55,507 bases of DNA from a candidate division WOR-3 bacterium (GTDB lineage: Bacteria > Hydrothermota > Hydrothermia > LBFQ01 > DSFT01). Under the pieces are notes generated by a model, which saw nothing but the letters and a program-made list of their open reading frames with translations, did no database searches and was not told where the DNA came from. How positions within the stretch are numbered: position 1 is the stretch's first letter; each line of letters opens with the position of its first letter. The translations under genes and the position numbers were made by a program. The stretch is taken from assembly GCA_965649115.1 (NCBI GenBank), contig CBFGJN010000003.1, positions 1 to 55,507 on the forward strand, in the 5' to 3' direction. Shown piece by piece: positions 2,265-15,986 of this stretch.

Positions 2265-2272
2265 AATCTAAA

Positions 2273-2292
2273 AGCCCCCAAAAATGGGGGCT
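2273..2292 (-). terminator. Intrinsic terminator-like hairpin
   Basis: Perfect 8-bp stem AGCCCCCA/TGGGGGCT, 4-nt loop, short T run on the minus strand, just after the stop at 2298. Confidence 0.7.
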
Positions 2293-2297
2293 AAAAA

Positions 2298-4019
2298 CTA
2301 TTGAACAACAACTTTATAATTTTCTTTATTTATTCTAACAATATAAACACCTCTATTCACATTAAAGATAATATCATTTCCAACTTTTCTATCAATTAGA
2401 GAACCATTCACATTATATAATGAAATAACAGCGCCTTTATCCATAGTCTTAACCTTAATTTGACCTTTCAAAGCAGTTATAGAATAATTAGAACTCTTAG
2501 AAATTTCAGAAACATCAACAACAATTAGAGTATCTTGGAATTGACCATTGCTATAAGATACGCCTTCCTTAGCTAACCAATTATATGAACCAGTAGTGGC
2601 ACCGGCACTTAAAGCATTGCAGTGTATATCAGTTGAACCATCTTGAGGACTTAAATAAGCAATAATAAGTGTATCTTGATTTGTTATTGAAAGATCTCTC
2701 GAGCCTACTCTTGCTGGCCATACGAAATCTTCAAGCTTATTAGGATTATTATTCCAATTTACTTTCCTTAAACCCCAGCTACTTCCACCGTCATTACTAG
2801 CAATATAGAAAATATCTTTTGGGGAATTTGTAGTTCTATTTGTTCCACAACCTGAATTCGTTGAATCAGTCCATTGAACAAAGAGGATAACAATTTTATT
2901 ATCTCCATTTATTGCTAACTTAGGTTGATGAGCAAATGGAAGTTTATCTTGAACACTATTATTAAACCAAGGTGCCCATATCCATTGTTTAATAGGTTTC
3001 GTCCAATCTATATTACCACTAGCAGTTCTTGTATATTTTTGTAGGACTAAAATGTGAGAAACTGTCGTATCATTATATGGAACAGGTGATTCTTGAAGTG
3101 AATAGAGAACATAAACATAATTTGATGTAAATCTGACATCTATATCAAAAAGTGAGCTAAATGTTTTACCTACTATTGTAAATGCATAAAGAGCAAGTGT
3201 ATCAATAAGGTTAGCACTAGCGGGATCTGGATTTGTTGTTCCATCTTTTCTAATTAAGAAATATCCAACTTTGTTTTGGGTAGGACTTCCAGCTGTGTTA
3301 TCAAGACCAACGACATAAACTGAATCACCGCTTATATCAACTGCATATGGTGAAATACCAAAGTTAGTAGTTGGATCTCTAACAGCAATAGGAGAACCTA
3401 TTAAAGCATTACTTATTGCATCATAAAAACCAAGATAAACAGCATATGTACTTGCTGTGAATCCTATAAAAGCAAATGTATCATTACCCACTTTATAACC
3501 TATACTTCTATATGTTCCAAGGTTACCAGTAGCAACGGGTGGGCTACCAACTTTACCTATGGACATATTACCCCAGTTACCACCAACTAATTCTGGCCAT
3601 GAGCAAACGGGTGTTCCATTTGATGTAAAGCCAACAGCACTTGGATACCTACCATTTGAATTTCCATTTATATTACCAGCTGTATTCCAGGTTTGCCCCC
3701 TATTATAACTCCAAGCGGCTCCAACTCTTCCAGAACCGCCAGCGGGATCTACTCTTCTAAAGCAAAAGAGAATGCTATCACCATTAGCAGAAACATAAAC
3801 AGGTTTGTGAAGTGTTGAAAGCAAACCATATTGATTTACTGAACTATCCTTATATATATCAACAAAAGCAAACGTTTGAGCAGGATTCTTGGGATTGTAG
3901 TAGGAAACTCCCCTTTCAACATAGCCATATACTCTATTTAGCTTTGACAGATCAGCTTTTCCAGAAACTTGGGCACCCTTTACAAGTGCCATCTTGCTTA
4001 TCAAAATCAGCTCCATCAT
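2298..4019 (-). CDS. Secreted protein with Asp-box/BNR-like motifs and T9SS-type C-terminal domain
   Basis: SYNRGQTW and SNDGGSSW Asp-box-like motifs; C-terminus ISLYNVNG...RGVYIVRI..YKVVV; SD GGAGG. Confidence 0.65.
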   Translation of the reverse strand: MMELILISKMALVKGAQVSGKADLSKLNRVYGYVERGVSYYNPKNPAQTFAFVDIYKDSSVNQYGLLSTLHKPVYVSANGDSILFCFRRVDPAGGSGRVGAAWSYNRGQTWNTAGNINGNSNGRYPSAVGFTSNGTPVCSWPELVGGNWGNMSIGKVGSPPVATGNLGTYRSIGYKVGNDTFAFIGFTASTYAVYLGFYDAISNALIGSPIAVRDPTTNFGISPYAVDISGDSVYVVGLDNTAGSPTQNKVGYFLIRKDGTTNPDPASANLIDTLALYAFTIVGKTFSSLFDIDVRFTSNYVYVLYSLQESPVPYNDTTVSHILVLQKYTRTASGNIDWTKPIKQWIWAPWFNNSVQDKLPFAHQPKLAINGDNKIVILFVQWTDSTNSGCGTNRTTNSPKDIFYIASNDGGSSWGLRKVNWNNNPNKLEDFVWPARVGSRDLSITNQDTLIIAYLSPQDGSTDIHCNALSAGATTGSYNWLAKEGVSYSNGQFQDTLIVVDVSEISKSSNYSITALKGQIKVKTMDKGAVISLYNVNGSLIDRKVGNDIIFNVNRGVYIVRINKENYKVVVQ

Positions 4020-4034
4020 CCTCCTTACCTCCTT

Positions 4035-4982
4035 TTAAGGTTGTGTAGATAAAAACTCATAAAATTTTGATTTTATAGCACTTTGGTTATTATAAACCCA
4101 ACGTACATCATTTTTTATGTTACTTCCCCAATTATTATATGGCCAAGTTGAATAAACATCATGTAGTAAATTCGTTAAATTATAATAAAGCTCCAATTTA
4201 TATAAAATTCTTGCAAGATTAAAAACATTATCTGAATTTTTAAACCTTTTTACAATCCTTGGATTTAATGAATTTATAGGATTTGTAAAATATGCTAAAT
4301 AACCATATACCATAGCTTGACCAGGATTATCACTCAAATAACCCAAACCTGATGATAGAATAATGATATTCCAAAGCAAACTATCAATATCTTTAAGTGT
4401 AGGATTTGATACAGAATATATAATTGTATCATTTGCTTTTGGTAAATCACTTTGCTTAACATTACTATTTTGATCTAACACATGTGTAAAAGGTATTATA
4501 ATTTTATTTCTATTAAATGCATAAATAGATTTGAGTGAATTATTTAGGAATATGGAAGAAACTTCAAGAATTGGAGTATCAGATATTTGAATATAGTAAT
4601 AACCGAAATAAACACTATCATTTCCAACTTTTTGAGCGGATATTAAAATTGTATCGGGCATAGCGTTTAAAATAATTTTATTTACAACTTTCTTTAATGG
4701 TGGTTCTCCTTGTGCAAAAACTCCAGAGGATGAAAGGGAAAAAGCTTCTTGATATAAGGATAAAGAAGCGGAAGATAAGGCATTTCCATAATAAGCTTCC
4801 CTATCTTTACTATTTATTGAAAGTGCCTCAGAAAATAAATTCCTTGCTTTTGAAAACTCAAAAATTGAATAATTTCTCCAAGCTTCATTCATAATATCAT
4901 CATAGGTAATGGGTGTCTCAGATGGCGTTTTTTTAGCGGAGCAACCTAAAATTAGAAATGAAATAAAGATAAGTCTTTTCAT
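4035..4982 (-). CDS. Lipoprotein with N-terminal TPR-like repeats
   Basis: Lipobox LILGC; AWRNY..ARNLFSEAL..EAYYGNA helical repeat; SD AAGGAGG. Confidence 0.65.
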   Translation of the reverse strand: MKRLIFISFLILGCSAKKTPSETPITYDDIMNEAWRNYSIFEFSKARNLFSEALSINSKDREAYYGNALSSASLSLYQEAFSLSSSGVFAQGEPPLKKVVNKIILNAMPDTILISAQKVGNDSVYFGYYYIQISDTPILEVSSIFLNNSLKSIYAFNRNKIIIPFTHVLDQNSNVKQSDLPKANDTIIYSVSNPTLKDIDSLLWNIIILSSGLGYLSDNPGQAMVYGYLAYFTNPINSLNPRIVKRFKNSDNVFNLARILYKLELYYNLTNLLHDVYSTWPYNNWGSNIKNDVRWVYNNQSAIKSKFYEFLSTQP

Positions 4983-4994
4983 ACCCTAACCTCC

Positions 4995-7202
4995 TTAATT
5001 TATAACTTGCTTAAATCTAAACTTCTCTCCACTATACATAATCTCAAAGACATAAACACCTTTCTTAATAGGAATTTCAATAACATTTAAACCAACACTT
5101 AAATCCCTATCAAAATTATAAATTACTCTACCATTAACATCAAAAATCCTAATTTTAACATTACTATAAGACGGAAGTGTAAGAAGAAGGTTTTTATTCT
5201 CTACTTTGAAAGAAAAGTTATAAATAGGTTTTCCATTGGATACCTTATAATAACCACTACCGTTGAATTTCGCCATTAAATATCCATTTTCATAATAAGT
5301 AGTCAAAGGTTGATTTTCATAATAGATAATCTCATTATTTGAACCTTTTATATAAATATAGCCATCAAACTTAGCGTTGGAGAATATATAAAAACCTTCC
5401 GAAGTTCTCTTAACAATAACTGGATATTCTACATTATCATTATTCTTTATCTTTAAAAGACCATTATAAAGTAAAATAGTAGATTGAGGAGATAAATAAT
5501 CCAATTTTATCGTATCAGATGGATAAGTAGATGGGATATTATCAAATTTATCACGAAGATTAATAACAGAAAATATATAATCACCTTTTTGAACCTTAGA
5601 AAGAAGAATTTTTCCATAATAGACAATATCAGTTACCGTTTCTAATTCATCCAATTCTATTAGAGGCTTATATATTGGATCAGGCGTAGATAATTGAACA
5701 TAAGCTTTTGAACACTTACCAACATCAACGCATAACAAATCATTTGCTAATAGAAAAACTTCAAATGTATTTAATGAAAACTTATTTGGTAGTACAAAGA
5801 AAGAAGAAATTGTAGGAGGGGTTGTATCATTTATTGCGTATCTTATTTCAACTTTTATCTGATCTAAATTTATCATGAATAATCTTTCTCTTCCTCTTCT
5901 TAAACTATCAACTTTAAGTTTCAATGGATTTGTTGAAAGCTCAGAAACAGTTTTTGAAAGCGTATCAATTTTAAAAACTTTTATCTTTGAACTATCTATC
6001 CAATTCCAAACAATAGGTTTATTTGCTCCTGTGATTGCAGTAACAACGAAACCCTCTGCCGCATAAATAGGAAGAGAAAGCCACCTATCATTGTCAGCAC
6101 CACCAACACCTTTAAATATAGGAGATGTCCCTGTCCAAGGATATATCTCCTTATTCTGCAAGAAAGAATTTGAATAATTATATCCATAACCTTTTGAATT
6201 TAATAAATTTTTCAAATGGAACTCAACAATATAACTCTTAATTAAACTATCTGGAAATAAACTATAAAATTTATCGTAATTATCTGTTATCTTATTTTTC
6301 AAAGCACTTGCATCTTTCTCTTCAAGAAAATTAAACCAAAGATATGAAATTTGTGCTTGCGGGTCATCAAGTGTATTTGCCAAGTTAACCTGATTTATGT
6401 AAGGCACCGTAGGATTTATAGCAATGTTATACTTAAAAGTAGCATCAATTTGATCATTTACTACATAAAGCAAGTTTCTTGTATTACCTTGTCTAAAACC
6501 ATAGAACAATGAAGTATCATTTGAAGCTTTGGAGGCTAAGTAATATGCAATTTGAGAACGAGCAAAGTTATCCTCATTAGGTTTATAACTATACAAGACA
6601 TAATTTGTATATAAGAAATATAAAGCTTTCTTTAAGGAGTTTCTATTAAAGGACTTGGTACAATCACCATCAGATGAGCTTTCAGATGTTAAAACACTTG
6701 CACAATTTAGAACAATATATTCATGTCTTGGATATGGTGTACTTAGGGAATAATAAGGATCAAAATAACCAACAACATTATTTGGATTAACTAAACCCAA
6801 AGCATCACTAACATAAAAGCCACCAAGCACAACAAAAATTCTCGGATCATTATCAGAATCAAGAAAATTAGGACTATAACCAAAGTAATTAGTTAAATAG
6901 TTATCAACAGTTGGTTTAATTTGACTAAATAAAGTGTCTATGAGATTCGCTATTTTAACTGCAGTGTCAGGAGGAATAATGTACTTCTTAGGTATTTCCT
7001 GAATATAAACTGTGTCCATTGTAAGAACATAAATATAAGGAGTTTTTAAAATTACACGAGCATAACCACTATCCGAAGCTTCTATATAATCTTTTCTGAA
7101 TGTAAGCGAAAAATATGTAAGTGGAACTTGAACCCTATCACCAACATTAAGCTCAGCACTTGCTATTGAAAAAAATGAAAGAAATATAAAAAGCTTTCTC
7201 AT
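4995..7202 (-). CDS. Secreted metallopeptidase-fold protein lacking HEXXH, with T9SS-type CTD
   Basis: Signal peptide MRKLFIFLSFFSIASA; DSDNDPRIFVVL..VGYFDP..EYIVLN; C-terminus IRIFDVNGR..KGVYVFEI; SD AAGGAGG. Confidence 0.6.
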   Translation of the reverse strand: MRKLFIFLSFFSIASAELNVGDRVQVPLTYFSLTFRKDYIEASDSGYARVILKTPYIYVLTMDTVYIQEIPKKYIIPPDTAVKIANLIDTLFSQIKPTVDNYLTNYFGYSPNFLDSDNDPRIFVVLGGFYVSDALGLVNPNNVVGYFDPYYSLSTPYPRHEYIVLNCASVLTSESSSDGDCTKSFNRNSLKKALYFLYTNYVLYSYKPNEDNFARSQIAYYLASKASNDTSLFYGFRQGNTRNLLYVVNDQIDATFKYNIAINPTVPYINQVNLANTLDDPQAQISYLWFNFLEEKDASALKNKITDNYDKFYSLFPDSLIKSYIVEFHLKNLLNSKGYGYNYSNSFLQNKEIYPWTGTSPIFKGVGGADNDRWLSLPIYAAEGFVVTAITGANKPIVWNWIDSSKIKVFKIDTLSKTVSELSTNPLKLKVDSLRRGRERLFMINLDQIKVEIRYAINDTTPPTISSFFVLPNKFSLNTFEVFLLANDLLCVDVGKCSKAYVQLSTPDPIYKPLIELDELETVTDIVYYGKILLSKVQKGDYIFSVINLRDKFDNIPSTYPSDTIKLDYLSPQSTILLYNGLLKIKNNDNVEYPVIVKRTSEGFYIFSNAKFDGYIYIKGSNNEIIYYENQPLTTYYENGYLMAKFNGSGYYKVSNGKPIYNFSFKVENKNLLLTLPSYSNVKIRIFDVNGRVIYNFDRDLSVGLNVIEIPIKKGVYVFEIMYSGEKFRFKQVIN

Positions 7203-7218
7203 AACTTAAAAACCTCCT

Positions 7219-8193
7219 TCAAAACTTATAATGAATAGCTATCTGATTTATGGGTGGTAAAATACCCTTATTATAAAAACCATAATCTAAACCTATTCTA
7301 CCATAATTAATTCCCAAACCAAAATTTATACCATTTGCTCCATTAACAGCTTCATCAGAATTAACATATAATTTATAACCTGTCCTTATAAAAATTATAT
7401 TCATAAGCGAATATTCTAAACCCACATTATGACTTTCCAAATTATCAGTTGGGTGATTTAATTGATAAGCTAATAAAATTTTTCCATAAGCAGAAGATAA
7501 GATGGAAAGTGATAATCCAAAACTAAATATCGTTGGAAGTCTATAACTTGTATATGTTGAAGTGGTTTCAACAAGACCAGCTTCATAAAGGTACCTTGTA
7601 TATTGACCAGAGGGCTTCATATCAAAACCAAAATTTCTAATACTTGCAGCAATTACTAAATCTCTAAAACCAGTTATGTAATAAGTTCCAACATCAAGTG
7701 CTAAACTATAAGCATTTGAAAATCCTCCAAAACCTTCATATATTATTTTAGAAGATAATCCAAATGAGAACTTGTCAGTTAAAAATTTTGAAAAAGTAAA
7801 TCCAAGCTGAGTAGCAAGATAACTAAAAGTTCCTATGCTATTTATATTACCACTAGGATCTAATTCGTATCCCTCCATTCCACCAACATAAACACCAGAT
7901 GCCCAAAAACCTAAATTGCCTCTTTTGGAAGGAACAACATAAGAAACAGCAAAATTATTAACACCCCAAAAGAAACCTGCTAATCCATAAATTGTTTTTA
8001 AGTTCAAGGTAGATACAATTGCAGGATTTACAAATGGAGAAGTGCTAGATAAACTAACACCAACATCACCCATAGATTCACTTCTAACATCGTAAGGGAG
8101 AGACAAAAACTTTGCACCAGACTGACCAGCTTTTGATATTTGAGCATTTAAAAATCCAAGATAAACAAAAATAAATAAAAATATCCTTTTCAT
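7219..8193 (-). CDS. PorV/PorQ-like (UPF0164-type) outer membrane beta-barrel
   Basis: Signal peptide; KAGQSGAKFLSL..RSESMGD, FVNPA, alternating beta strands, C-terminal YKF. Confidence 0.8.
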   Translation of the reverse strand: MKRIFLFIFVYLGFLNAQISKAGQSGAKFLSLPYDVRSESMGDVGVSLSSTSPFVNPAIVSTLNLKTIYGLAGFFWGVNNFAVSYVVPSKRGNLGFWASGVYVGGMEGYELDPSGNINSIGTFSYLATQLGFTFSKFLTDKFSFGLSSKIIYEGFGGFSNAYSLALDVGTYYITGFRDLVIAASIRNFGFDMKPSGQYTRYLYEAGLVETTSTYTSYRLPTIFSFGLSLSILSSAYGKILLAYQLNHPTDNLESHNVGLEYSLMNIIFIRTGYKLYVNSDEAVNGANGINFGLGINYGRIGLDYGFYNKGILPPINQIAIHYKF

Positions 8194-8203
8194 TACTAAC
8201 CTC

Positions 8204-10468
8204 CTATCTTAAAATCATAAATCTCAAAATCTTGTAATCACCATCTTTGTCAGATATTTTTGCTAAGTATATTCCAGGTGACACAAGAAAGCCATTTTTT
8301 GTTAATAAATTCCATCTTAAAGAACCAGAAGCCGGATTATTGTGATAAAGTGTAATAATATGATCGCCCGAAAGTGTGAATATATCAACCCTTGCAGATG
8401 GTGGTAAATTTTGAAATTCTATTTCCTGCGTTATCTTTGTAGCAGACCAAACAGCTGAACCTTTAAATGGATTAGGAACAATTCTAACTTTATCTTTCCA
8501 ATTTTCTTTTGAAGAAATCGGAGAACCAACATATAACGCTAATGGAGAACCATTAGCATCCTTGGCATAATTATCAAGAGAACTTTGTTGTGAAAGACCG
8601 TAAGTGGAAGGGTCAGCAGTTGGAAAGTCAAACGCACTAACAGCATAAAAGTAAGGAAATCCTGGCTTTACTGTTGTATCTTCATAAGTTCTAACGATAT
8701 TATCAAAGACTTGAACACCAACAGATTTTAAATCATTTAGTGAAAGACCAAATAAACTTTTAACAATTGAATCCTTCCTCCCATCGCTTGTTCCATTTTT
8801 AAATATAAGTGCTAAAAGAGAACCTTTATCAACACTATTGTTTTTCTTTAAAGGTAAGGTAAAGTTAGGATTGTAAAGAGTTCTGTAAACAGCATAACCA
8901 GCGAAATCTAATTCGTTTGTAACATAATCAGGTGTTATTTCTGGCTTATTATCCCAAACTAAAATAACTTTTCCGCTTTCTGAACTATATTTTAATGAAG
9001 GAGAAGGTGGCGGAATAGGTATTTTATAATGATTATCAGGAAATTTATCGGGATCAGGTTTGCAATTATCTGGATGTCCTGGATCGCAATTGCTACCTAA
9101 GTAGTATGTCCTATAAGCTATTTCAACAAGTTGCCTTGCGCCTAAAATATATTTCCCACCTTTATAATAATTATCAACACCACCATTCAAACCATAACCA
9201 ACACCTGTAACCAAAACCAATCTAATAGTATCAGGATAGGTAATAGAATAAGGACCAACTGTAAGAAGAAATCTATAATCAAATTGTGTGGCTCCAACAT
9301 TTAAAGGGACTGGAACAAATCTATAAAATTGAGTTTTTGCTATATGACCAGCCATATAGTAAAACATGTCTGGATTTGTAGCACCAGCATAAGGTGGGTC
9401 AGTTTCTATATTCCACCATTGATGAGCATGAGGTCTTACAATCCTACCACCAGGAAATGTACTATCATCAGGAGTTGGATCTGCATATATAAATGATGCA
9501 AAAATAAAACCAGGGCATCTTTTTATATTTTCAGAATTAACAAGTTTATCTCTTGCATCATAAAATATATAAGACATTCCTCTCGGAATTAAGTAGATGT
9601 ACTTTCTTCCATTTGGTAGTGTAGGTAAGTTGGTTGTATCAACACCTGCTTTTGCAGAAATTTGTCTTTCAATAGGGTCATCACCCCAAATAATATAACC
9701 ATCGGGAACATTATCAGGTTGCTCAATTGTAGTATCACCCAAAATAGTATATTTGTCTTCAAGACCAAAATTAACGCCATTTAAATAACTCAAAAGTGGG
9801 TCATCAGTAGAATAACCAGAAAGTGACAAGTATCTTGGATCCTCATCAATAACCTTTTTATAAAGTCCATCGTAAAAAACCAAATTATCGTACCAAAATG
9901 AGGTTCTCGTGCTAGCGGCACAAGCATCTGCATCAAACCAAACTCCAACAAAAACACTATCAATACTATTTGGTATATTACCCGATTTTAATGCTGGATC
10001 AAAAACAATTTTATATTCATGGATAAAGAATTGATTATATGGTCTATTAGGCCAGGAAAGTGTCCTCTCAAAAACCCTAACACCCAATCTGTTCCCACTA
10101 TTAGCATTTGTATTCTCTTTAAAAACCGCATAAACATCAAATGCAGATTTACCTGGTCCTATGTACTTAAAACCAGTCACAGGATTTATATAATTATCAT
10201 CTGACTCAAATTCATCATTATAAAATTCCGCACTTACTATTCCTCCACTTACATTAGCTCCAATCCATAAACCACCTCTATATAAGTAGTTTGAGATAAT
10301 GTTTGCGGGATAGTTATAAGAAATAGGGTCAGTTACATTATAGCCATATAAACCATTATTAAACTTTGAAGTAGATATTTCGCCTATGTTTATATGAACA
10401 TACTTTGTTGTTCCAAGTGGATAGTAATAAGAACCTCCAAACTTTGATAAAATCAATAAACTTATCAT
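8204..10468 (-). CDS. Large secreted protein with FlgD/T9SS-like C-terminal domain
   Basis: Start moved to MISLLILSK (SD GGAGG); YRGGLWIGA, FAGYAVYR, YFYAVSAFD (FN3-like), VRIVPNPF..WNLLTKNG..SPGIYL. Confidence 0.7.
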   Translation of the reverse strand: MISLLILSKFGGSYYYPLGTTKYVHINIGEISTSKFNNGLYGYNVTDPISYNYPANIISNYLYRGGLWIGANVSGGIVSAEFYNDEFESDDNYINPVTGFKYIGPGKSAFDVYAVFKENTNANSGNRLGVRVFERTLSWPNRPYNQFFIHEYKIVFDPALKSGNIPNSIDSVFVGVWFDADACAASTRTSFWYDNLVFYDGLYKKVIDEDPRYLSLSGYSTDDPLLSYLNGVNFGLEDKYTILGDTTIEQPDNVPDGYIIWGDDPIERQISAKAGVDTTNLPTLPNGRKYIYLIPRGMSYIFYDARDKLVNSENIKRCPGFIFASFIYADPTPDDSTFPGGRIVRPHAHQWWNIETDPPYAGATNPDMFYYMAGHIAKTQFYRFVPVPLNVGATQFDYRFLLTVGPYSITYPDTIRLVLVTGVGYGLNGGVDNYYKGGKYILGARQLVEIAYRTYYLGSNCDPGHPDNCKPDPDKFPDNHYKIPIPPPSPSLKYSSESGKVILVWDNKPEITPDYVTNELDFAGYAVYRTLYNPNFTLPLKKNNSVDKGSLLALIFKNGTSDGRKDSIVKSLFGLSLNDLKSVGVQVFDNIVRTYEDTTVKPGFPYFYAVSAFDFPTADPSTYGLSQQSSLDNYAKDANGSPLALYVGSPISSKENWKDKVRIVPNPFKGSAVWSATKITQEIEFQNLPPSARVDIFTLSGDHIITLYHNNPASGSLRWNLLTKNGFLVSPGIYLAKISDKDGDYKILRFMILR

Positions 10469-10472
10469 ATCT

Positions 10473-13400
10473 CTACCTCCTCCAGTTAATTTCAAAGCCT
10501 ATTTCAGTTATTCTTGGTAATGAATAAACACTTATATCGCCAGAAGGACCTTCTGCAGCTCTCTCACCCAAACAAGTAGGAAGACCATTTCTACAAGCAT
10601 CAGAGCTTGGTCCATAACCAAACCAATAAGTCTGATCAGAATAAGTTATAAGAACTCTATTATTAAATAAGTTATAAACATTACTAAATAACCTTAAATC
10701 CAAACCTCTTATAACAAAACTCTTATATAAGTTCAAATTAGCAACTGATTGACTATAAAATCTCAAACTATTTGTTAATTCAAGATAATCCCTTGGTGTT
10801 CTGATTTCGGGTGAATATGGAAGAGCTGTTCCATAATTCCACACAAAAGAGCCACCCCAACCTGTCTTAAATGGACTTTGAGGAATAAATGGTATTGTGT
10901 ATCCAACATTAACAACAATTCCATGTCTTTGATCCCAATCTAAATAAAATTCTTGTGTGAAACCTGGTGCAAGTCCATAGTACTCATTAAGATAATTACT
11001 ATTAGGATTAGATGAGCTTCCCCTTGCAACCTGGAAAGTATAATTTATATCAAAGAATAAGTTATTTAAAATACCAATTCCACCTCCAATTTGCTTAGAG
11101 AGTTGAATTTCAATTCCTCTAACCGTTGCATAATCAGAATTTACATAAACTGTGTACCATTTTCCTATCCTTACCTTTTGGCCTGTAATTGGGTCTATCT
11201 CGTACATATCGTACCTTTGAGATTGAACCAAATCGTAAATATCCTTATAAAATCCTGTAACATCTATGTACATATATGGATTAAAGGCATGTCTTATACC
11301 AAGCTCATAGGAAATTGTTTTTTCAGGTTTTAAAGCAGGATTACCTTGTCTTGGATAAGCACCTGAGAATATCCACCATTGATTTGAGTACAATCTTGCA
11401 AGTAGAGGAACTTGGAAGTAATGACCATATGTAAAGTGTAAAACATCATTTTCGCTAATTGGATGAGAAATTCCAATTCTTGGACTAATATAATAATAAG
11501 GTTTTACCTTAACAGGATTATTTATATTAAGTGTATCTCTTCTTATTCCATAACCATTATCCCATGTCCAAGCACCATTAAGAGTATCAGGATTAGCAAA
11601 ATCACTATTATCATTTACCTTTACAGGTATTTCATAATCAGCAGGAACATATGCATCTGGATCAAAGTAATCAAGTCTAAGTCCAATATTTGCTATTAAA
11701 CCTTCAAATTCTATTTTATCCCTAACATAAAATGCAAATTCTTTTGGATCAGCATCAACAACAGAAGGATAAACATTTCCACCTGATGCAAAATCCCATA
11801 TATCCTGTTTTAATCTTATAAATCTGTATTCAAAACCTGTCTTAAATTCATGTCCTTTTAAATTGGCAAAGTCCTGTTGAACAAAATCAAATTTCACTTG
11901 ATTCGTATAATTATATCTCCAACCAAATGCAGTTCTATCATAATTTAATGGGTTTGGAACATTTATTCCACTTATTCTATATAATGTATCCTTTATTGGA
12001 ACATTTAATTGATCACTAACAGCAACTGTATCACCTGATGGAGTAATTCCAACTAATAATCTCAAAGCAATACGTTTTTGCTGAGGATAACAATTAATAA
12101 TGGGTGTTTGCCACCAAAATGCTCTTAATTCAACAACACCTGGAATATCAGTAGGTTTAGCAAAACCAGGCTTATTTCTAATCATATTTAGAAGATCAGA
12201 GCAAAAGTAAGAATAAACCTCATTACCCACTAAAACACTACTCTTTAATGCATTAGTATCAATCTCAACATAACCATTCTTATCTCTATCTGAAAAATCA
12301 TCAATACCATCCATATTTATATCTTCAAATGAATTCCAAATTGTTTGATTTCTATATCTACTAAATCTAATTTCTGAATAAGTTTTTGGAGAAATTAAAA
12401 AGTTTATTCCACCTATTAAGCCAAATATATCAGTTTTACTATAAGCAGAATGAGTTGGAGCTATCCTCCATGCAGGCTCCCAATAGGATGTCCAAGCTCT
12501 CGTTCCAACAAAACTACCAAAAATTTTAATTTTTTGATTTGGTAAGGCAGTTATCTTCGCTTGATAATTAATTTGATTATTTCTATTAGGCATAATATTA
12601 GTTTCACCAGCATTTAATCTGCTAAACCTTCCATTTGAATTTTGAATATCAAGTGTTCCACTAAATCTTAAATACTTCTTAATAATTGGACCTGAGGCAG
12701 TAAATTCAAATCTATTTAAATCCTGCTTTTGATTATAAAATGTTGTTGGGAATGGCATTCCATTCGTATATAATGGTTTAATATCTGAAAATAATGGGTC
12801 ATCACTCTTAAAATTCATATCATTATATTTCTTCTGTCTTAAAATCTCATATCCAAAAATCTGATCATAATAACTACCCATATATTTTCTATCAAACCAC
12901 TTTGCATAAACATCACCCTTATCAGTTGATAAGAAATTATATATAGGAAGTCCGATATTCTTTGAACCAATATAAAAATTACTTAAAAATCCAAAATCAG
13001 AAGTTCTCGTTCTTAATTGAAACTCATATTTATCAGTCCCTTCCTTTGTAACAACTTCAACAACACCTGACGCAGCATTACCATATTCAGCTCCAAAACC
13101 ACCCTTACTCACAGAAACTTCTGAAATCGCGTTAAGAGGTAAGTTAGGAGTACCTGCATTTGTATAAGGGTCTCTTAAATCTGCTCCATCAACAACATAA
13201 GCAACTTCCCCTGTTCTACCACCTCTTATTTGTAATTGACCCCCATACCTTCTAACACCTGCTTGAAGTTGAAGCGCTTGCTCAACATTAGCAACAGGTA
13301 AATTTTGAAGTTTTTCACTTCTAATTTTATCAACGCTTGCAGTTAAATCCTTTTTAACAACTGGCTCTCTCGCTATTACAACCTGCTCCTGTAAAACTAC

Positions 13401-13724
13401 CCCTGTTTCTTGAAGTTTTATAATACCACCAAGAGGACTTATTGTTCTATCTGCTTCAACTACAAGATTTTTAAGAACAAATGGAGAATATCCAGTAAAT
13501 TCAACTTTTAAGGTATAAGTTCCTGGTGGAACTCTTAATAAAACAAATTCACCCTTATCATCAGTATATGTCCCAATACCAAGCTCTTCAATATAAACAG
13601 CAGCAGCTACAATTGGTTGTCCTGTCTTAGCATCCACAACCTTACCTGTAATCTTACCATATTGAGCGTAAGCTAAACTAAAAAATCCCAAAATAAAGGT
13701 TATAAGTATAAACAATCGTTTCAT
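10473..13724 (-). CDS. TonB-dependent receptor with N-terminal carboxypeptidase-regulatory-like domain
   Basis: Signal peptide; GKITGKVVDAKTG, plug motifs IRGGR..YVVDG and GGFGAEYGNAASGVV, LKPEKTISYELG, NVYNLFN; ATG 13724 preferred over GTG 13730 on SD spacing. Confidence 0.92.
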   Translation of the reverse strand: MKRLFILITFILGFFSLAYAQYGKITGKVVDAKTGQPIVAAAVYIEELGIGTYTDDKGEFVLLRVPPGTYTLKVEFTGYSPFVLKNLVVEADRTISPLGGIIKLQETGVVLQEQVVIAREPVVKKDLTASVDKIRSEKLQNLPVANVEQALQLQAGVRRYGGQLQIRGGRTGEVAYVVDGADLRDPYTNAGTPNLPLNAISEVSVSKGGFGAEYGNAASGVVEVVTKEGTDKYEFQLRTRTSDFGFLSNFYIGSKNIGLPIYNFLSTDKGDVYAKWFDRKYMGSYYDQIFGYEILRQKKYNDMNFKSDDPLFSDIKPLYTNGMPFPTTFYNQKQDLNRFEFTASGPIIKKYLRFSGTLDIQNSNGRFSRLNAGETNIMPNRNNQINYQAKITALPNQKIKIFGSFVGTRAWTSYWEPAWRIAPTHSAYSKTDIFGLIGGINFLISPKTYSEIRFSRYRNQTIWNSFEDINMDGIDDFSDRDKNGYVEIDTNALKSSVLVGNEVYSYFCSDLLNMIRNKPGFAKPTDIPGVVELRAFWWQTPIINCYPQQKRIALRLLVGITPSGDTVAVSDQLNVPIKDTLYRISGINVPNPLNYDRTAFGWRYNYTNQVKFDFVQQDFANLKGHEFKTGFEYRFIRLKQDIWDFASGGNVYPSVVDADPKEFAFYVRDKIEFEGLIANIGLRLDYFDPDAYVPADYEIPVKVNDNSDFANPDTLNGAWTWDNGYGIRRDTLNINNPVKVKPYYYISPRIGISHPISENDVLHFTYGHYFQVPLLARLYSNQWWIFSGAYPRQGNPALKPEKTISYELGIRHAFNPYMYIDVTGFYKDIYDLVQSQRYDMYEIDPITGQKVRIGKWYTVYVNSDYATVRGIEIQLSKQIGGGIGILNNLFFDINYTFQVARGSSSNPNSNYLNEYYGLAPGFTQEFYLDWDQRHGIVVNVGYTIPFIPQSPFKTGWGGSFVWNYGTALPYSPEIRTPRDYLELTNSLRFYSQSVANLNLYKSFVIRGLDLRLFSNVYNLFNNRVLITYSDQTYWFGYGPSSDACRNGLPTCLGERAAEGPSGDISVYSLPRITEIGFEINWRR

Positions 13725-13754
13725 TTTCACAACCCCCTTTTAAACAACTTGAAA

Positions 13755-13767: not shown

Positions 13768-14457
13768 TCATTTTTTAATTACAAAATTAAAAGGGATTAA
13801 AACCCTAACCTTAACTTTCTTGTCTTTCATCATAGCAGGAGAAAATTTATATTGATATGCTGCTTTTAAAGCAGGCTCATTAAATATACTATTTGTAGAA
13901 CTTACAATTTGTGCATCAACAACATTTCCTTCTTCATCTACAACTGCACTTATTACAACTCTTCCCTCAATTCCAGCTTTTTTAGCATATTCAGGATATT
14001 CAGGAGGAACAGATTTTATAACCTGAGGTTTAATCTCAACCTTAAAAAATTCATAAACTTCTTCACTTGTAGCAGTAGGAAGAGGAACATTTTCAATAGG
14101 ATTGATAGGAGCTTGTTCTTGGATAATCTCTTCTTTACTCTCTGTTTGAGATATTAAGCTTCTTTCTTTTTTCACTTTGTCAGACTTTTCCTTCTTTACT
14201 TCAACTATTCTTACATTTATTCTGGGTTTAACTGGTGGAGGAGGTTCTTCTATTCTTTGAATAACAGGCATAAATTCAATAGTAACAGGTTTAGGTAATT
14301 GCGCGGGTTTATATGTTCCAAATTCAATTTTCTTAACACCAGCAAATAACAAAGCTATTATTCCAATTGAGATGATAAAACCAAAGAAAATGTTCTGAGC
14401 ATAGAAATCTTCAATTTCTTGACCTTTTTGAATATAATGTTTTGGTAATTTCGCCAT
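13768..14457 (-). CDS. tonB: Energy transducer TonB
   Basis: N-terminal TM, EEPPPP linker, TonB_C motif PEYPEYAKKAGIEGRV..AAYQYKFSPA. Confidence 0.9.
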   Translation of the reverse strand: MAKLPKHYIQKGQEIEDFYAQNIFFGFIISIGIIALLFAGVKKIEFGTYKPAQLPKPVTIEFMPVIQRIEEPPPPVKPRINVRIVEVKKEKSDKVKKERSLISQTESKEEIIQEQAPINPIENVPLPTATSEEVYEFFKVEIKPQVIKSVPPEYPEYAKKAGIEGRVVISAVVDEEGNVVDAQIVSSTNSIFNEPALKAAYQYKFSPAMMKDKKVKVRVLIPFNFVIKK

Positions 14458-14460
14458 GCT

Positions 14461-14868
14461 CTAACCTCCTGTTATAAAAGCAATTTTATTTATTCCTATT
14501 TTCCTTAACCTATCCATAATTTCAATAATAGTATTTACTCTCACATTTTTATCAGCCCTTATAAGAATTAAAACATCTTTTTGAGATTTCGTTAAATATA
14601 TAGTAGATAGGTCATCTAAGGATTTTATCTTAAATCCCTCTGCATATATTTCATTATCATTAACTATCAAAATTGTTGAGGTTTTACTTTGTGTGGGAAT
14701 TTTAAATGAGTTATTTAATTTTGGAAGATTTATAACTTTTGATTTTTCATAATACTCAACTTTAACAACAATTACCATAAACACCGCCATTATAAACGCT
14801 AAATTAGCTAAGGACAGAATAGAAATTGAGGGAATTTCACGCTTTGGAAAATTTATCCTAACAGCCAT
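14461..14868 (-). CDS. exbD: ExbD/TolR family protein, TM Asp replaced by Asn
   Basis: TM SLANLAFIMAVFM; VINLPK; LIRADKNV..IMDRLRKIGINKIAF. Confidence 0.8.
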   Translation of the reverse strand: MAVRINFPKREIPSISILSLANLAFIMAVFMVIVVKVEYYEKSKVINLPKLNNSFKIPTQSKTSTILIVNDNEIYAEGFKIKSLDDLSTIYLTKSQKDVLILIRADKNVRVNTIIEIMDRLRKIGINKIAFITGG

Positions 14869-14871
14869 AAA

Positions 14872-15369
14872 TTACCTTCTAACAACACCTATGAAAATTT
14901 TAGGTTGTAGCTTTAAATCCTTAAAAACTTGAATTGTCATATCAAAAGCCTTAATTAGATATTCATAAGAAGCGTCCTGATGAATAATAATATAAATTGA
15001 TTTGGTGCTATCTTCAATAAAATAACTTTTTAACTTATCAACAATTTGATTAAAATTAACAGGTTCATCTTCTACAAAAAATTCACCTTTATCATTTATA
15101 GAAAATCTTATGTAATTTGAAAATTTCTCCTCTTGGGGATTTTGAAGTCTTTCATACGAGTAAAGAACCCCCCTTGCAGAACCACCTGTTATTTGATAAG
15201 GCAATTGAGCAACTGCAGGTTTTTTCTCAAAAGCAAATAATATACCCTTCTCTTTCTTAGGAATGTTTAAAGCAAAAAACGAAAGGATTATAAAAGATAA
15301 ATTTGCAACAGATAATGATACAAAGTCAAATCTAAAATCAATTGTTTTAACTTCTTTAAAAATTTTCAT
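14872..15369 (-). CDS. exbD: Second ExbD/TolR family protein, TM Asp replaced by Asn
   Basis: TM SVANLSFIILSFF; INDKGEFFVEDEPV; IIHQDASYEYLIKAFD. Confidence 0.7.
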   Translation of the reverse strand: MKIFKEVKTIDFRFDFVSLSVANLSFIILSFFALNIPKKEKGILFAFEKKPAVAQLPYQITGGSARGVLYSYERLQNPQEEKFSNYIRFSINDKGEFFVEDEPVNFNQIVDKLKSYFIEDSTKSIYIIIHQDASYEYLIKAFDMTIQVFKDLKLQPKIFIGVVRR

Positions 15370-15986
15370 ATAACAAGAATTCCTTTTTCAAGAAGATATT
15401 CAACAAGTGCGTTTGAAGCTTCTTCTATTTGTTTTTGATATGTATTTATCCTATTTGTGAAAATAGCATAAAATAAAGCACAGGGAGTAGCAACAACGAA
15501 AGATGCCAATGTCGCTATTAAAGCTTCACCTATACCACTAGCAACAAGTGTAGGTTCAACTTCACCAGATGTAGCTATCGCATTAAAAACTTTTATAAGT
15601 CCTATTGATGTTCCAATAAATCCAAGAAGAGGAGATATTGTAGTAATAGCGGATAAATAAATCATGTTTCTATCAAGGAAAGATAACTCGCTTATAGCTT
15701 TCCTTACCATTGCGTCCTCAAAGGCACTTTTACCTAACTGAACCTTTTCAAGACCAGCAACTAAAACCTTGGCAAGAGGAGAACGATTATTATATAAATA
15801 ATCAAGAGCTTCTTTAAGACCTTGCTCCTCAATAATTTCTATAACCTTTTGAACAAGCTTTAAAGGATTTGTAAATGAAAGAATATAAAGACTTATAAAT
15901 CTTTCTAAAATAATAGCAAGAGCAAAAATTGCAAGGACTAAAAGTCCCCACATCACAGGACCACCTTTCTGAAAAAGTTCAATCAT
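15366..15986 (-). CDS. exbB: MotA/TolQ/ExbB proton channel protein
   Basis: KGGPVM, SPLLGFIGTSIG, GIGEALIAT. Confidence 0.92.
   Translation of the reverse strand: MIELFQKGGPVMWGLLVLAIFALAIILERFISLYILSFTNPLKLVQKVIEIIEEQGLKEALDYLYNNRSPLAKVLVAGLEKVQLGKSAFEDAMVRKAISELSFLDRNMIYLSAITTISPLLGFIGTSIGLIKVFNAIATSGEVEPTLVASGIGEALIATLASFVVATPCALFYAIFTNRINTYQKQIEEASNALVEYLLEKGILVI

What the first reader, a model, noticed from the sequence alone, without database searches (positions are those of the whole stretch)
14461..15369. Both ExbD subunits carry Asn in place of the essential transmembrane Asp
The TM segments read SLANLAF (codon AAT) and SVANLSF (codon AAT), where FCB-type ExbD reads SMADIAF. The ExbD/TolR/MotB Asp is required for ion coupling, and E. 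coli ExbD D25N is the classic dead mutant (established). The same change in two diverged paralogues argues against sequencing error. ExbB keeps both conserved Thr motifs. Inference: a non-energised scaffold, a heteromer with another ExbD, or a different coupling mechanism.
Basis: partly seen in the sequence, partly recalled or inferred. Interest (0 to 1): 0.72.

Follow-up and report, generated by a model that had tools for sequence, protein, structure and literature searches.

The report
Ton motor without its proton-binding aspartates
In one AT-rich genus of hot-spring bacteria (Ca. Hydrothermia), both axle subunits of an otherwise normal, still-selected Ton motor have lost the membrane aspartate that every studied motor of this kind needs. 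The same genus also has a new hybrid TonB that may connect outer-membrane transporters to the genome's only aspartate-bearing motor.

Summary
ExbD2 Asn22 (AAT, 14803-14805) and ExbD1 Asn23 (AAT, 15301-15303) occupy the position of E. coli ExbD Asp25.

- **Fixed, not an error.** All 46 ExbD2 orthologue clusters have Asn. None of 16 ExbD1 clusters has Asp (they have N, S, T or I).
- **Derived state.** The same operon (ExbB, two ExbD, TonB, Oar-like receptor) in the sister genus and the rest of the class has Asp in both ExbDs (SMADIAF).
- **The FDF Asp is not a shifted site.** It is the counterpart of a conserved Glu eight residues upstream, which Asp-bearing relatives also have.
- **Still under selection.** dN/dS is 0.07-0.23, and ExbB keeps its Thr/Glu/Thr residues. 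The two ExbDs evolved unusually fast.
- **Rest of the genome.** There are 7-8 TonB-dependent receptors and one other motor, whose ExbD pair is Asp plus Asn.
- **Hybrid TonB.** It joins that other motor's type of anchor to the Ton-type C-terminal domain. It occurs in 5 of 5 Asn/Asn species and in none of the 38 other genomes of the class searched.

My best reading (about 0.45) is that this motor lost carboxylate coupling and transport energy was rerouted. A motor that still works without a carboxylate is not excluded. No paper found describes natural Asp-less ExbDs.

The parts
15366..15986 (-). ExbB (206 aa), the ring subunit. It keeps the GFIGT (T148-like) and GIGEALIAT (E176- and T181-like) motifs.
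   Evidence: PF01618 at 87.6 bits. Alignment with E. coli ExbB and 34 relatives. dN/dS 0.067.
14872..15369 (-). ExbD1 (165 aa), the first axle paralogue. It has Asn23 at the Asp site and an invariant F14-D15-F16.
   Evidence: PF02472 at 30.9 bits, C-terminal domain only. Orthologue alignment A1. Gap-free homology to the Asp-bearing orthologue of G088. AF2 model with an ExbD-like periplasmic fold, pLDDT 63.7.
15301..15303 (-). AAT codon of ExbD1 Asn23, at the position of E. coli ExbD Asp25. Orthologues have N, S, T or I here.
15325..15327 (-). GAC codon of ExbD1 Asp15 (in FDF). It is invariant and is the counterpart of the conserved Glu eight residues upstream (EIPT...D) in Asp-bearing relatives and of E. 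coli D17.
14461..14868 (-). ExbD2 (135 aa), the second axle paralogue. Asn22 lies in an invariant SLANL, and the INLP (psi-x-psi-x-L-P) motif after the helix is kept.
   Evidence: PF02472 at 53.2 bits over the full length. phmmer against 6tyi_Y. 46 orthologue clusters. dN/dS 0.082.
14803..14805 (-). AAT codon of ExbD2 Asn22, at the position of E. coli ExbD Asp25. It is invariant in all orthologues.
13768..14457 (-). The operon's TonB (229 aa). Its anchor has no His (AQNIFFGFIISIG), and it has a TonB_C domain.
   Evidence: PF03544 at 70.3 bits. dN/dS 0.226. Anchors of relatives.
10473..13730 (-). Oar-like TonB-dependent receptor (1085 aa): CarboxypepD_reg domain, Plug and barrel. The same receptor follows the Asp/Asp operon in relatives.
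   Evidence: Pfam. Synteny in L010, L099, L100 and L109.

Best explanation
**What it is.** This is the orthologue of the ordinary FCB-type Ton operon (ExbB, ExbD, ExbD, TonB, Oar-like receptor). On the stem of one very AT-rich Hydrothermia genus, both ExbD subunits lost the membrane carboxylate: GAY became AAY, with further drift to S, T or I in ExbD1.

**Shown:**
- The loss is fixed in all five species of the genus.
- The genes remain under purifying selection.
- ExbB's pore residues and ExbD2's TonB-coupling motif are kept.
- The ExbDs specifically evolved fast.
- The genome still has 7-8 TonB-dependent receptors.
- Its only Asp-bearing ExbD sits in a second motor cluster (Asp plus Asn pair).
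- A chimeric TonB exists only in this genus. It joins that second motor's His-containing anchor to the Ton-type C-terminal domain.

**Inferred:**
- With two permanently neutral axle residues, mimics of the protonated state, ExbB5-ExbD1-ExbD2 can still assemble and hold its TonB. It can no longer turn proton flow into work by the canonical mechanism.
- Energisation of the receptors has passed to the Asp/Asn motor through the chimeric TonB.
- The Asn/Asn complex is kept for a job that needs no Asp, such as docking or positioning TonB at the Oar-like receptor and its cargo operon, or assembly.
For: - **Asn at the Asp25 position:**
- **Fixed in orthologues:**
- **Derived state:** the same operon with the same receptor reads SMADIAF in both ExbDs in 27 other genomes of the phylum, including the sister genus. 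The family splits 5 Asn/Asn species against 2 Asp/Asp species.
- **D15 is the conserved upstream Glu, not a new site:**
- **No new acidic residue in the ExbB helices:**
- **Purifying selection:** dN/dS is 0.067 for ExbB, 0.155 for ExbD1, 0.082 for ExbD2 and 0.226 for TonB.
- **Faster evolution confined to the ExbDs:** G000 against sister G088 gives ExbB 66% identity but ExbD1 37% and ExbD2 28%. G088 against more distant Asp/Asp genomes gives ExbB 63-72% and ExbDs 45-57%. Within the genus, the other motor's ExbDs are 87-98% identical where ExbD1 and ExbD2 are 51-67%.
- **Genome inventory:** 4 ExbD, 2 ExbB, 3 TonB_C and 7-8 Plug receptors. Only ExbDa on contig C52 has Asp. Four of the five Asn/Asn species show this Asp/Asn pair, and the fifth genome, incomplete at 1.2 Mb, showed only the Asn/Asn pair.
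- **Chimeric TonB (C15, 269 aa):** residues 15-123 are 42% identical to the C52 TonB-like anchor, and residues 163-267 are 69% identical to the operon TonB. The full-length form occurs in 5 of 5 Asn/Asn species and in none of the 38 other genomes of the class searched.
- **The chimera is better conserved than the operon TonB:** 77-79% against 56-62% identity.
- **Literature:** ExbD D25N is inactive and dominant negative, and the Asp is called invariant and absolutely required (10.1101/2022.09.26.509584; PMC12905483).
Against: - The Asp loss, the chimeric TonB and the shift from about 51% to 28% GC all map to one stem branch. Their co-occurrence is therefore a single evolutionary event, not a replicated correlation.
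- Everything a working motor needs except the Asp is kept: ExbB T/E/T, ExbD2's INLP motif, and intact periplasmic domains and TonB. A plain scaffold would be expected to lose these.
- Within-genus constraint on the ExbDs is only about 1.3-1.8 times looser, relative to ExbB, than in Asp/Asp lineages.
- Single-gene Asn-ExbD systems with a canonical ExbB exist in other metagenomes. This hints that Asp-less complexes may work on their own.
- No direct evidence shows which ExbB the chimeric TonB binds.
Confidence: 0.45

Rival explanations
1. The complex is still an ion-driven motor that works without a carboxylate. The ion (H+ through a water or hydroxyl relay, or Na+) would be handled by a neutral polar site built from ExbD2 Asn22, the polar ExbD1 residue (N/S/T) and the ExbB Thr/Glu residues.
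For: ExbB T148, E176 and T181 equivalents are invariant in all 7 Asn/Asn sequences. ExbD2 Asn is invariant, and ExbD1 keeps an oxygen-bearing residue at position 22 or 23 in all 17 sequences. The INLP TonB-coupling motif is kept. dN/dS is 0.07-0.16. Independent single-gene Asn-ExbD systems have a canonical ExbB. The operon still sits with its TonB and receptor.
Against: D25N in ExbD is dead; I recall the same for the equivalent MotB, PomB and TolR mutants. No compensating acidic residue appears in ExbB or the ExbDs. The ExbD1 position tolerates Ile in one lineage. The ExbDs evolved fast on the stem branch. The genus gained a TonB that appears to fit the other motor.
Confidence: 0.25
2. A mixed complex forms. 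The single Asp-bearing ExbD (ExbDa of contig C52) enters the window's ExbB pentamer alongside ExbD1 or ExbD2 and supplies one carboxylate, as in the widespread Asp/Asn pairs.
For: Asp/Asn tandem pairs are common: 67 of 80 metagenome loci, plus the genome's own C52 cluster. This suggests one Asp per pair can suffice. Four of the five Asn/Asn species show ExbDa, and the fifth genome is incomplete.
Against: The operon already encodes two dedicated, co-evolving ExbDs for the two axle positions. ExbDa gave no tblastn match to ExbD1 or ExbD2 at E <= 1e-3, and it is encoded with its own partner ExbDb and its own ExbB, which is 30% identical to the window's ExbB. ExbDa is nearly unchanged across the genus (94-96%), with no sign of adapting to a second partner.
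Confidence: 0.1
3. ExbD1 Asp15 (FDF) has been taken over as the working carboxylate, two helical turns nearer the cytoplasm.
For: F14-D15-F16 is invariant in all 17 ExbD1 sequences, and the stretch D15 to N23 is hydrophobic.
Against: D15 is homologous to the Glu of EIPT in relatives that also have the canonical Asp, and to E. coli D17. Its conservation therefore predates the loss. The literature reports that the location of Asp25 within the helix is essential. The AF2 model starts the helix only at residue 21, at low confidence.
Confidence: 0.08
4. The genes are decaying remnants on the way to loss, in a shrinking AT-rich genome.
For: GAT to AAT is in the direction of the AT pressure: genome GC is 27.6% and the locus 29-32%, against 51% in the sister genus. 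The ExbDs evolve fast.
Against: Intact reading frames persist in five species that have diverged to saturation (dS > 1), with dN/dS 0.07-0.23. Other conserved Asp residues are kept, for example RADK. Synteny is kept.
Confidence: 0.05

Closest known systems
E. coli, Pseudomonas and Serratia ExbB5-ExbD2-TonB Ton motor (PDB 6TYI, 7AJQ, 9DDO)
   Same: It has the same Pfam families and the same gene set with TonB and a TonB-dependent receptor. ExbB T148, E176 and T181 equivalents are present. ExbD2 aligns over its full length with E. coli ExbD and keeps the psi-x-psi-x-L-P motif.
   Different: It has two different ExbD paralogues instead of one, and neither has the Asp25 that reviews call invariant and absolutely required. 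The TonB anchor lacks the His of the SHLS motif.
FCB-type exbB-exbD-exbD-tonB operons, and the Myxococcus xanthus Oar / ExbB1-ExbD1-ExbD2-TonB1 system (PMC6434023, PMC11658791)
   Same: The gene order is identical, and the receptor is an Oar-like one with a CarboxypepD_reg domain. Direct orthologues in the same family, order and class were found.
   Different: Those orthologues read IPTASMADIAFLL in both ExbDs. Here both Asp residues are gone.
Laboratory mutants ExbD D25N and, from memory, MotB D32N
   Same: The chemical change at the same position is the same.
   Different: The mutants are dead and dominant negative in one generation. Here the change has been fixed and the genes kept by selection across five species.
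Natural Asp/Asn ExbD tandem pairs (this genome's C52 cluster and 67 of 80 metagenome loci), also noted by earlier agents of this scan
   Same: The second-gene subunit carries Asn (LAN or LIN) at the Asp site.
   Different: In those pairs the first subunit keeps Asp. In the window's operon the first subunit has lost it too.
GldLM gliding / type 9 secretion motor (from memory: axle GldM without Asp, with the charge pair GldM Arg9 and GldL Glu49)
   Same: It is a 5:2-type complex whose axle lacks the canonical Asp.
   Different: Here there is no Arg in the ExbD helices and no extra acidic residue in the ExbB helices, so the GldLM solution was not adopted. There is no sequence relationship beyond the superfamily.

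Membership tests
ExbD/TolR (PF02472) | Profile match above Pfam's gathering score | tested here: met
   ExbD2 scores 53.2 bits over positions 2-125 of 128. ExbD1 scores 30.9 bits, periplasmic domain only. The cut-off is 25.4 bits.
ExbD/TolR (PF02472) | Protonatable Asp near the cytoplasmic end of the single transmembrane helix (E. coli D25) | tested here: not met
   ExbD2 has Asn22 and ExbD1 has Asn23. No orthologue has Asp.
ExbD/TolR (PF02472) | psi-x-psi-x-L-P motif after the helix, which couples ExbD to TonB (V45, V47, L49, P50) | tested here: met
   ExbD2 has VINLP, and its orthologues have VVLP, ISLP or INLP. ExbD1 is degenerate here (ILFAFE or ILFSFP). The motif is as described in PMC11658791.
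ExbD/TolR (PF02472) | Periplasmic alpha/beta domain | tested here: met
   The AF2 model of ExbD1 has strands 85-91, 96-102, 124-130 and 158-163 and helices 106-119 and 135-151, with pLDDT 70-83 in that part. ExbD2 aligns with solved ExbD periplasmic domains 2pfu and 8pek.
ExbB/TolQ/MotA (PF01618) | Profile match, plus the conserved pore residues Thr148, Glu176 and Thr181 | tested here: met
   87.6 bits. GFIGT and GIGEALIAT align with E. coli GLFGT and GIAEALLAT.
Ton system (functional) | ExbB, ExbD and TonB encoded together with TonB-dependent receptors in the genome | tested here: met
   The operon holds TonB and a receptor. The genome has 7-8 Plug-domain receptors.
Ion-driven 5:2 motor (functional) | 5:2 stoichiometry and conversion of ion flow into work | not testable with these tools
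   No multimer modelling or experiment was available. The canonical ion-binding residue is absent.
GldLM-type charge arrangement | Acidic residue on the ring subunit's helix paired with an Arg on the axle helix | tested here: not met
   There is no Arg or Lys inside either ExbD helix, and no acidic residue in the ExbB helices beyond the family-wide Glu.
Asp/Asn heteromeric ExbD pair | One of the two tandem ExbDs keeps the Asp | tested here: not met
   The window's operon has N (or S, T, I) plus N. The feature is met only by the separate C52 cluster (LTDVMG plus LANIFAF).

The most novel reading that the evidence does not exclude
ExbB-ExbD1-ExbD2 of this genus is a working ion-driven 5:2 motor with no carboxylate on its axle. 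It would couple H+ or Na+ flow through a neutral Asn/Ser/Thr site together with the ExbB Thr/Glu residues. The Asp held to be 'absolutely required' would then not be a universal requirement of this motor class.
Probability: 0.22. Interest if true: 0.9.

Novelty: new variant of a known kind. Interest (0 to 1): 0.62.

Why it matters
Every mechanistic model of the MotAB, ExbBD and TolQR family rests on alternating protonation of the two axle aspartates, and reviews call this residue invariant and absolutely required.

This genus offers a clean natural comparison. It has the same operon, in the same family of organisms, with Asp/Asp in one genus and Asn/Asn in the sister genus. The genes are still selected, and the cell still carries TonB-dependent receptors.

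- If the Asn/Asn complex works, the coupling chemistry of 5:2 motors is broader than thought.
- If it does not work, this genus shows how a cell rewires energy supply. A chimeric TonB links transporters to another motor, which itself has only one Asp. The genus would also show what a Ton complex does when it cannot be energised.

Either outcome can be tested with expressed proteins. The work also shows that Asp/Asn ExbD pairs and single Asn-ExbD systems are common in metagenomes but were not described in any paper found here.

Tried and rejected
- **Shifted Asp.** I tested whether the FDF Asp (D15) is the real Asp equivalent. I rejected this. It aligns without gaps to the conserved Glu eight residues upstream of the Asp in relatives that have both residues, and to E. 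coli D17.
- **Compensating charge in ExbB.** I compared 7 Asn/Asn and 27 Asp/Asp ExbB sequences over the three helices. No new acidic residue appears. The only changes near the site are losses of two extra hydroxyls that E. coli also lacks.
- **Sequencing or start-codon artefact.** The reading frames begin directly after stop codons, and the orthologues agree.
- **Genome collection scan with the ExbD1 profile.** It gave only 4 loci, so I used the genome search for the phylum instead.
- **AlphaFold2 of ExbD1.** The model is of low confidence in the N-terminus and helix (pLDDT 40-64), so it cannot place D15. No multimer modelling was available.
- **Literature.** Six searches found no description of natural Asn at this position.
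- **Deamidation or editing.** I considered spontaneous Asn deamidation or RNA editing restoring Asp. I did not pursue it. Asn-Leu inside a membrane helix is a poor deamidation site, and no data bear on it.

Full report
**What is there.** On the minus strand the window carries:
- ExbB (15366-15986, PF01618)
- ExbD1 (14872-15369, PF02472)
- ExbD2 (14461-14868, PF02472)
- TonB (13768-14457, PF03544)
- a 1085-aa TonB-dependent receptor (10473-13730) with a CarboxypepD_reg domain, Plug and barrel

Source names on orthologues place the organism in Candidatus Hydrothermia / candidate division WOR-3. The genome is 1.85 Mb with 27.6% GC.

**Checking the observation.** ExbD2 reads SILSLANLAF, with Asn22 encoded by AAT (plus-strand att at 14803-14805). 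ExbD1 reads FVSLSVANLSF, with Asn23 encoded by AAT (15301-15303). Three alignments place these Asn residues at the E. coli Asp25 position:
- phmmer against the solved E. coli ExbD (6tyi_Y) pairs ExbD2 a21-n22 with i24-D25.
- A MAFFT alignment of 142 homologues from an exhaustive HMMER search, plus E. coli ExbD and this genome's four ExbDs, puts both Asn residues in the D25 column. That column holds D 132, N 12, S 2 and G 1.
- The closest Asp-bearing orthologue, in the sister genus G088, matches ExbD1 residue for residue across the helix: E-IPTSSMA-D-IAFLLIIFFIL against D15-FVSLSVA-N23-LSFIILSFFAL.

The Asp of FDF is the counterpart of the conserved Glu eight residues upstream of the Asp (E. 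coli D17). Relatives have both residues, so D15 is not a displaced Asp.

**Fixed, and under selection.**
- All 46 ExbD2 orthologue clusters with an N-terminus read SLANL, down to about 47-53% identity.
- In 16 ExbD1 clusters the position is N, S, T or I and never D, while F14-D15-F16 is invariant.
- For the closest pair, dN/dS is 0.067 (ExbB), 0.155 (ExbD1), 0.082 (ExbD2) and 0.226 (TonB). More distant pairs are saturated at synonymous sites yet keep intact frames.
- Other conserved Asp residues, such as the one in RADK, are retained.

**The state is derived and maps to one genus.**
- A profile of ExbD1 searched in 121 genomes of the phylum finds the same tandem pair in 32 of them.
- In 27 of the 30 fetched loci, both ExbDs read IPTASMADIAFLL or a near variant (TGD or TSD in three loci), all keeping the Asp. 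These 27 cover the sister genus, the same order, the same class and other classes.
- In the relatives inspected, TonB follows the pair, and in several an Oar-like receptor follows TonB, beginning AQYGK.SG.V.DA.
- The family holds seven species-level genomes. Five in genus g1 are Asn/Asn and two in genus g2 are Asp/Asp.
- The Asn/Asn loci have 29-32% GC, against 51% in the sister genus and 39-61% elsewhere. GAY to AAY therefore runs with the mutation pressure, although selection could have held the site, as it held other Asp residues.

**What changed and what did not.**
- ExbB keeps the equivalents of T148, E176 and T181 in all seven Asn/Asn sequences.
- No new acidic residue appears in any ExbB helix.
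- ExbD2 keeps the psi-x-psi-x-L-P motif (VINLP; VVLP, ISLP or INLP in orthologues). In E. coli this motif couples ExbD to TonB (PMC11658791).
- The ExbDs evolved unusually fast, and ExbB did not:

| Comparison | ExbB identity | ExbD identity |
|---|---|---|
| G000 vs sister genus G088 | 66% | ExbD1 37%, ExbD2 28% |
| G088 vs more distant Asp/Asp genomes | 63-72% | 45-57% |
| G000 vs G112/G122 (within the genus), this operon | 80-84% | ExbD1 63-67%, ExbD2 51-53% |
| G000 vs G119/G112/G122 (within the genus), the other motor | not compared | ExbDa 94-96%, ExbDb 87-99% |

**The rest of the genome.**
- There are four ExbD, two ExbB, three TonB_C proteins and 7-8 Plug-domain receptors.
- The second motor cluster, on contig C52, runs TPR protein, ExbB, ExbDa, ExbDb, then a 372-aa TonB-like protein.
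- ExbDa reads LISLTDVMG (Asp) and ExbDb reads FNLANIFAF (Asn). The genome therefore has exactly one Asp-bearing ExbD.
- Four of the five Asn/Asn species show this pair. The fifth genome, incomplete at 1.2 Mb, showed only the Asn/Asn pair. In the sister genus the pair is Asp plus Ser.

**A genus-specific chimeric TonB.** The third TonB (contig C15, 269 aa) is a chimera.
- Residues 15-123 are 42% identical to the C52 TonB-like protein. This part includes a His-containing anchor (SKRRISLLLIIALIFHIAIG against SKRRFLIFLIFAILIHAGV) and, further on, a shared ADVVVG...GG segment up to about residue 175.
- Residues 163-267 are 69% identical to the operon TonB's C-terminal domain.
- The full-length form is found in all five Asn/Asn species at 77-93% identity. 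It is absent from the 38 other genomes of the class that were searched, including both sister-genus species. In those genomes the two halves match separate proteins.
- Its C-terminal domains form one clade. That clade joins the operon TonBs of this family in an unresolved node, which is consistent with an origin near the base of the genus.
- It is better conserved than the operon TonB: 77-79% against 56-62% over the same genome pairs.

**Interpretation.** Two permanently neutral residues at the axle site mimic the protonated state, and in E. coli D25N is inactive and dominant negative. With no compensating charge, canonical proton coupling by this complex is excluded.

My preferred reading (about 0.45) is as follows:
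- The complex still assembles and holds its TonB, but it no longer powers transport.
- The receptors are energised by the Asp/Asn motor through the chimeric TonB.
- The Asn/Asn complex is kept for a role that needs no Asp.

There are three main caveats:
- The Asp loss, the chimera and the GC shift lie on one branch, so they count as one event.
- Everything except the Asp is conserved, which is more than a scaffold should need.
- Single-gene Asn-ExbD systems with a canonical ExbB exist in unrelated metagenome contigs (L061, L063, L068).

A working carboxylate-free motor therefore stays a live rival (about 0.25). Less likely are:
- a mixed complex with ExbDa (0.1)
- D15 acting as the carboxylate (0.08)
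- gene decay (0.05)

**Wider context and novelty.**
- Asn at this position is not unique to this genome. In a metagenome scan seeded on the motif NI[VI][FL]LLL[IV]F, 67 of 80 loci have an Asp-type ExbD immediately upstream of the Asn-type one.
- Reviews nevertheless call the Asp invariant and absolutely required, and six literature searches found no report of natural exceptions.
- Earlier notes of this scan, which are AI notes and not independent evidence, report Asp/Asn pairs in several phyla and one Asp-less pair in a marine Synechococcus.
- Three things are particular here: a clean sister-group contrast (Asp/Asp against Asn/Asn) within one orthologous Ton operon, continued selection on the genes, and the co-occurring chimeric TonB.
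- I class it as a new variant of a known kind.

**Limits.** The AF2 monomer of ExbD1 is of low confidence in the helix region.

Noticed in passing
own genome, contig C15:14589-15395 (minus strand); locus L152: A 269-aa chimeric TonB. Its N-terminal anchor and linker resemble the C52 TonB-like protein, and its C-terminal domain is 69% identical to the operon TonB. The full-length form is present only in the five Asn/Asn species of this genus.
   Followed up: yes
own genome, contig C52 (locus L005:2971-8244, minus strand): A second motor cluster: TPR protein, ExbB, ExbDa (Asp), ExbDb (Asn), then a 372-aa TonB-like protein. Its ExbB has Thr where E. coli ExbB has Glu176 (GISTSLVAT against GIAEALLAT). 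This motor is therefore also atypical, with one Asp and no ring Glu.
   Followed up: partly
metagenome loci L016-L095: In 67 of 80 loci an Asp-type ExbD (TPLIDVVF) lies directly upstream of an Asn-type ExbD (PLINIVFLLL). Asp/Asn tandem pairs are therefore widespread in marine and other metagenomes. L016 shows such a pair between a receptor, ExbB and TonB.
   Followed up: partly
metagenome loci L061, L063, L068 (about 2270-4040 in each): These are TPR, ExbB, a single Asn-type ExbD and a TonB-like gene, with no second ExbD within 3 kb upstream. ExbB is canonical (GT..., GIWEAL.TT). They are possible homodimeric Asp-less systems, sitting next to pilus-like genes.
   Followed up: partly
window 2298-10495, minus strand: Five large reading frames downstream of the receptor in the same orientation (763, 324, 735, 315 and 573 aa) have no Pfam match at E <= 0.01. 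Another first-stage note reads them as a cargo / PorV-like module.
   Followed up: no
protein P0065: A 1930-aa protein matches ExbD2 residues 67-115 at E = 5.5e-18 (residues 530-578 of the protein). This is far stronger than ordinary ExbD homologues. It is an ExbD-like periplasmic piece embedded in a giant protein.
   Followed up: no
loci L096-L125; whole genome: Genus g1 has shifted to very low GC (genome 27.6%, this locus 29-32%). Its sister genus has about 51% at the same locus.
   Followed up: partly
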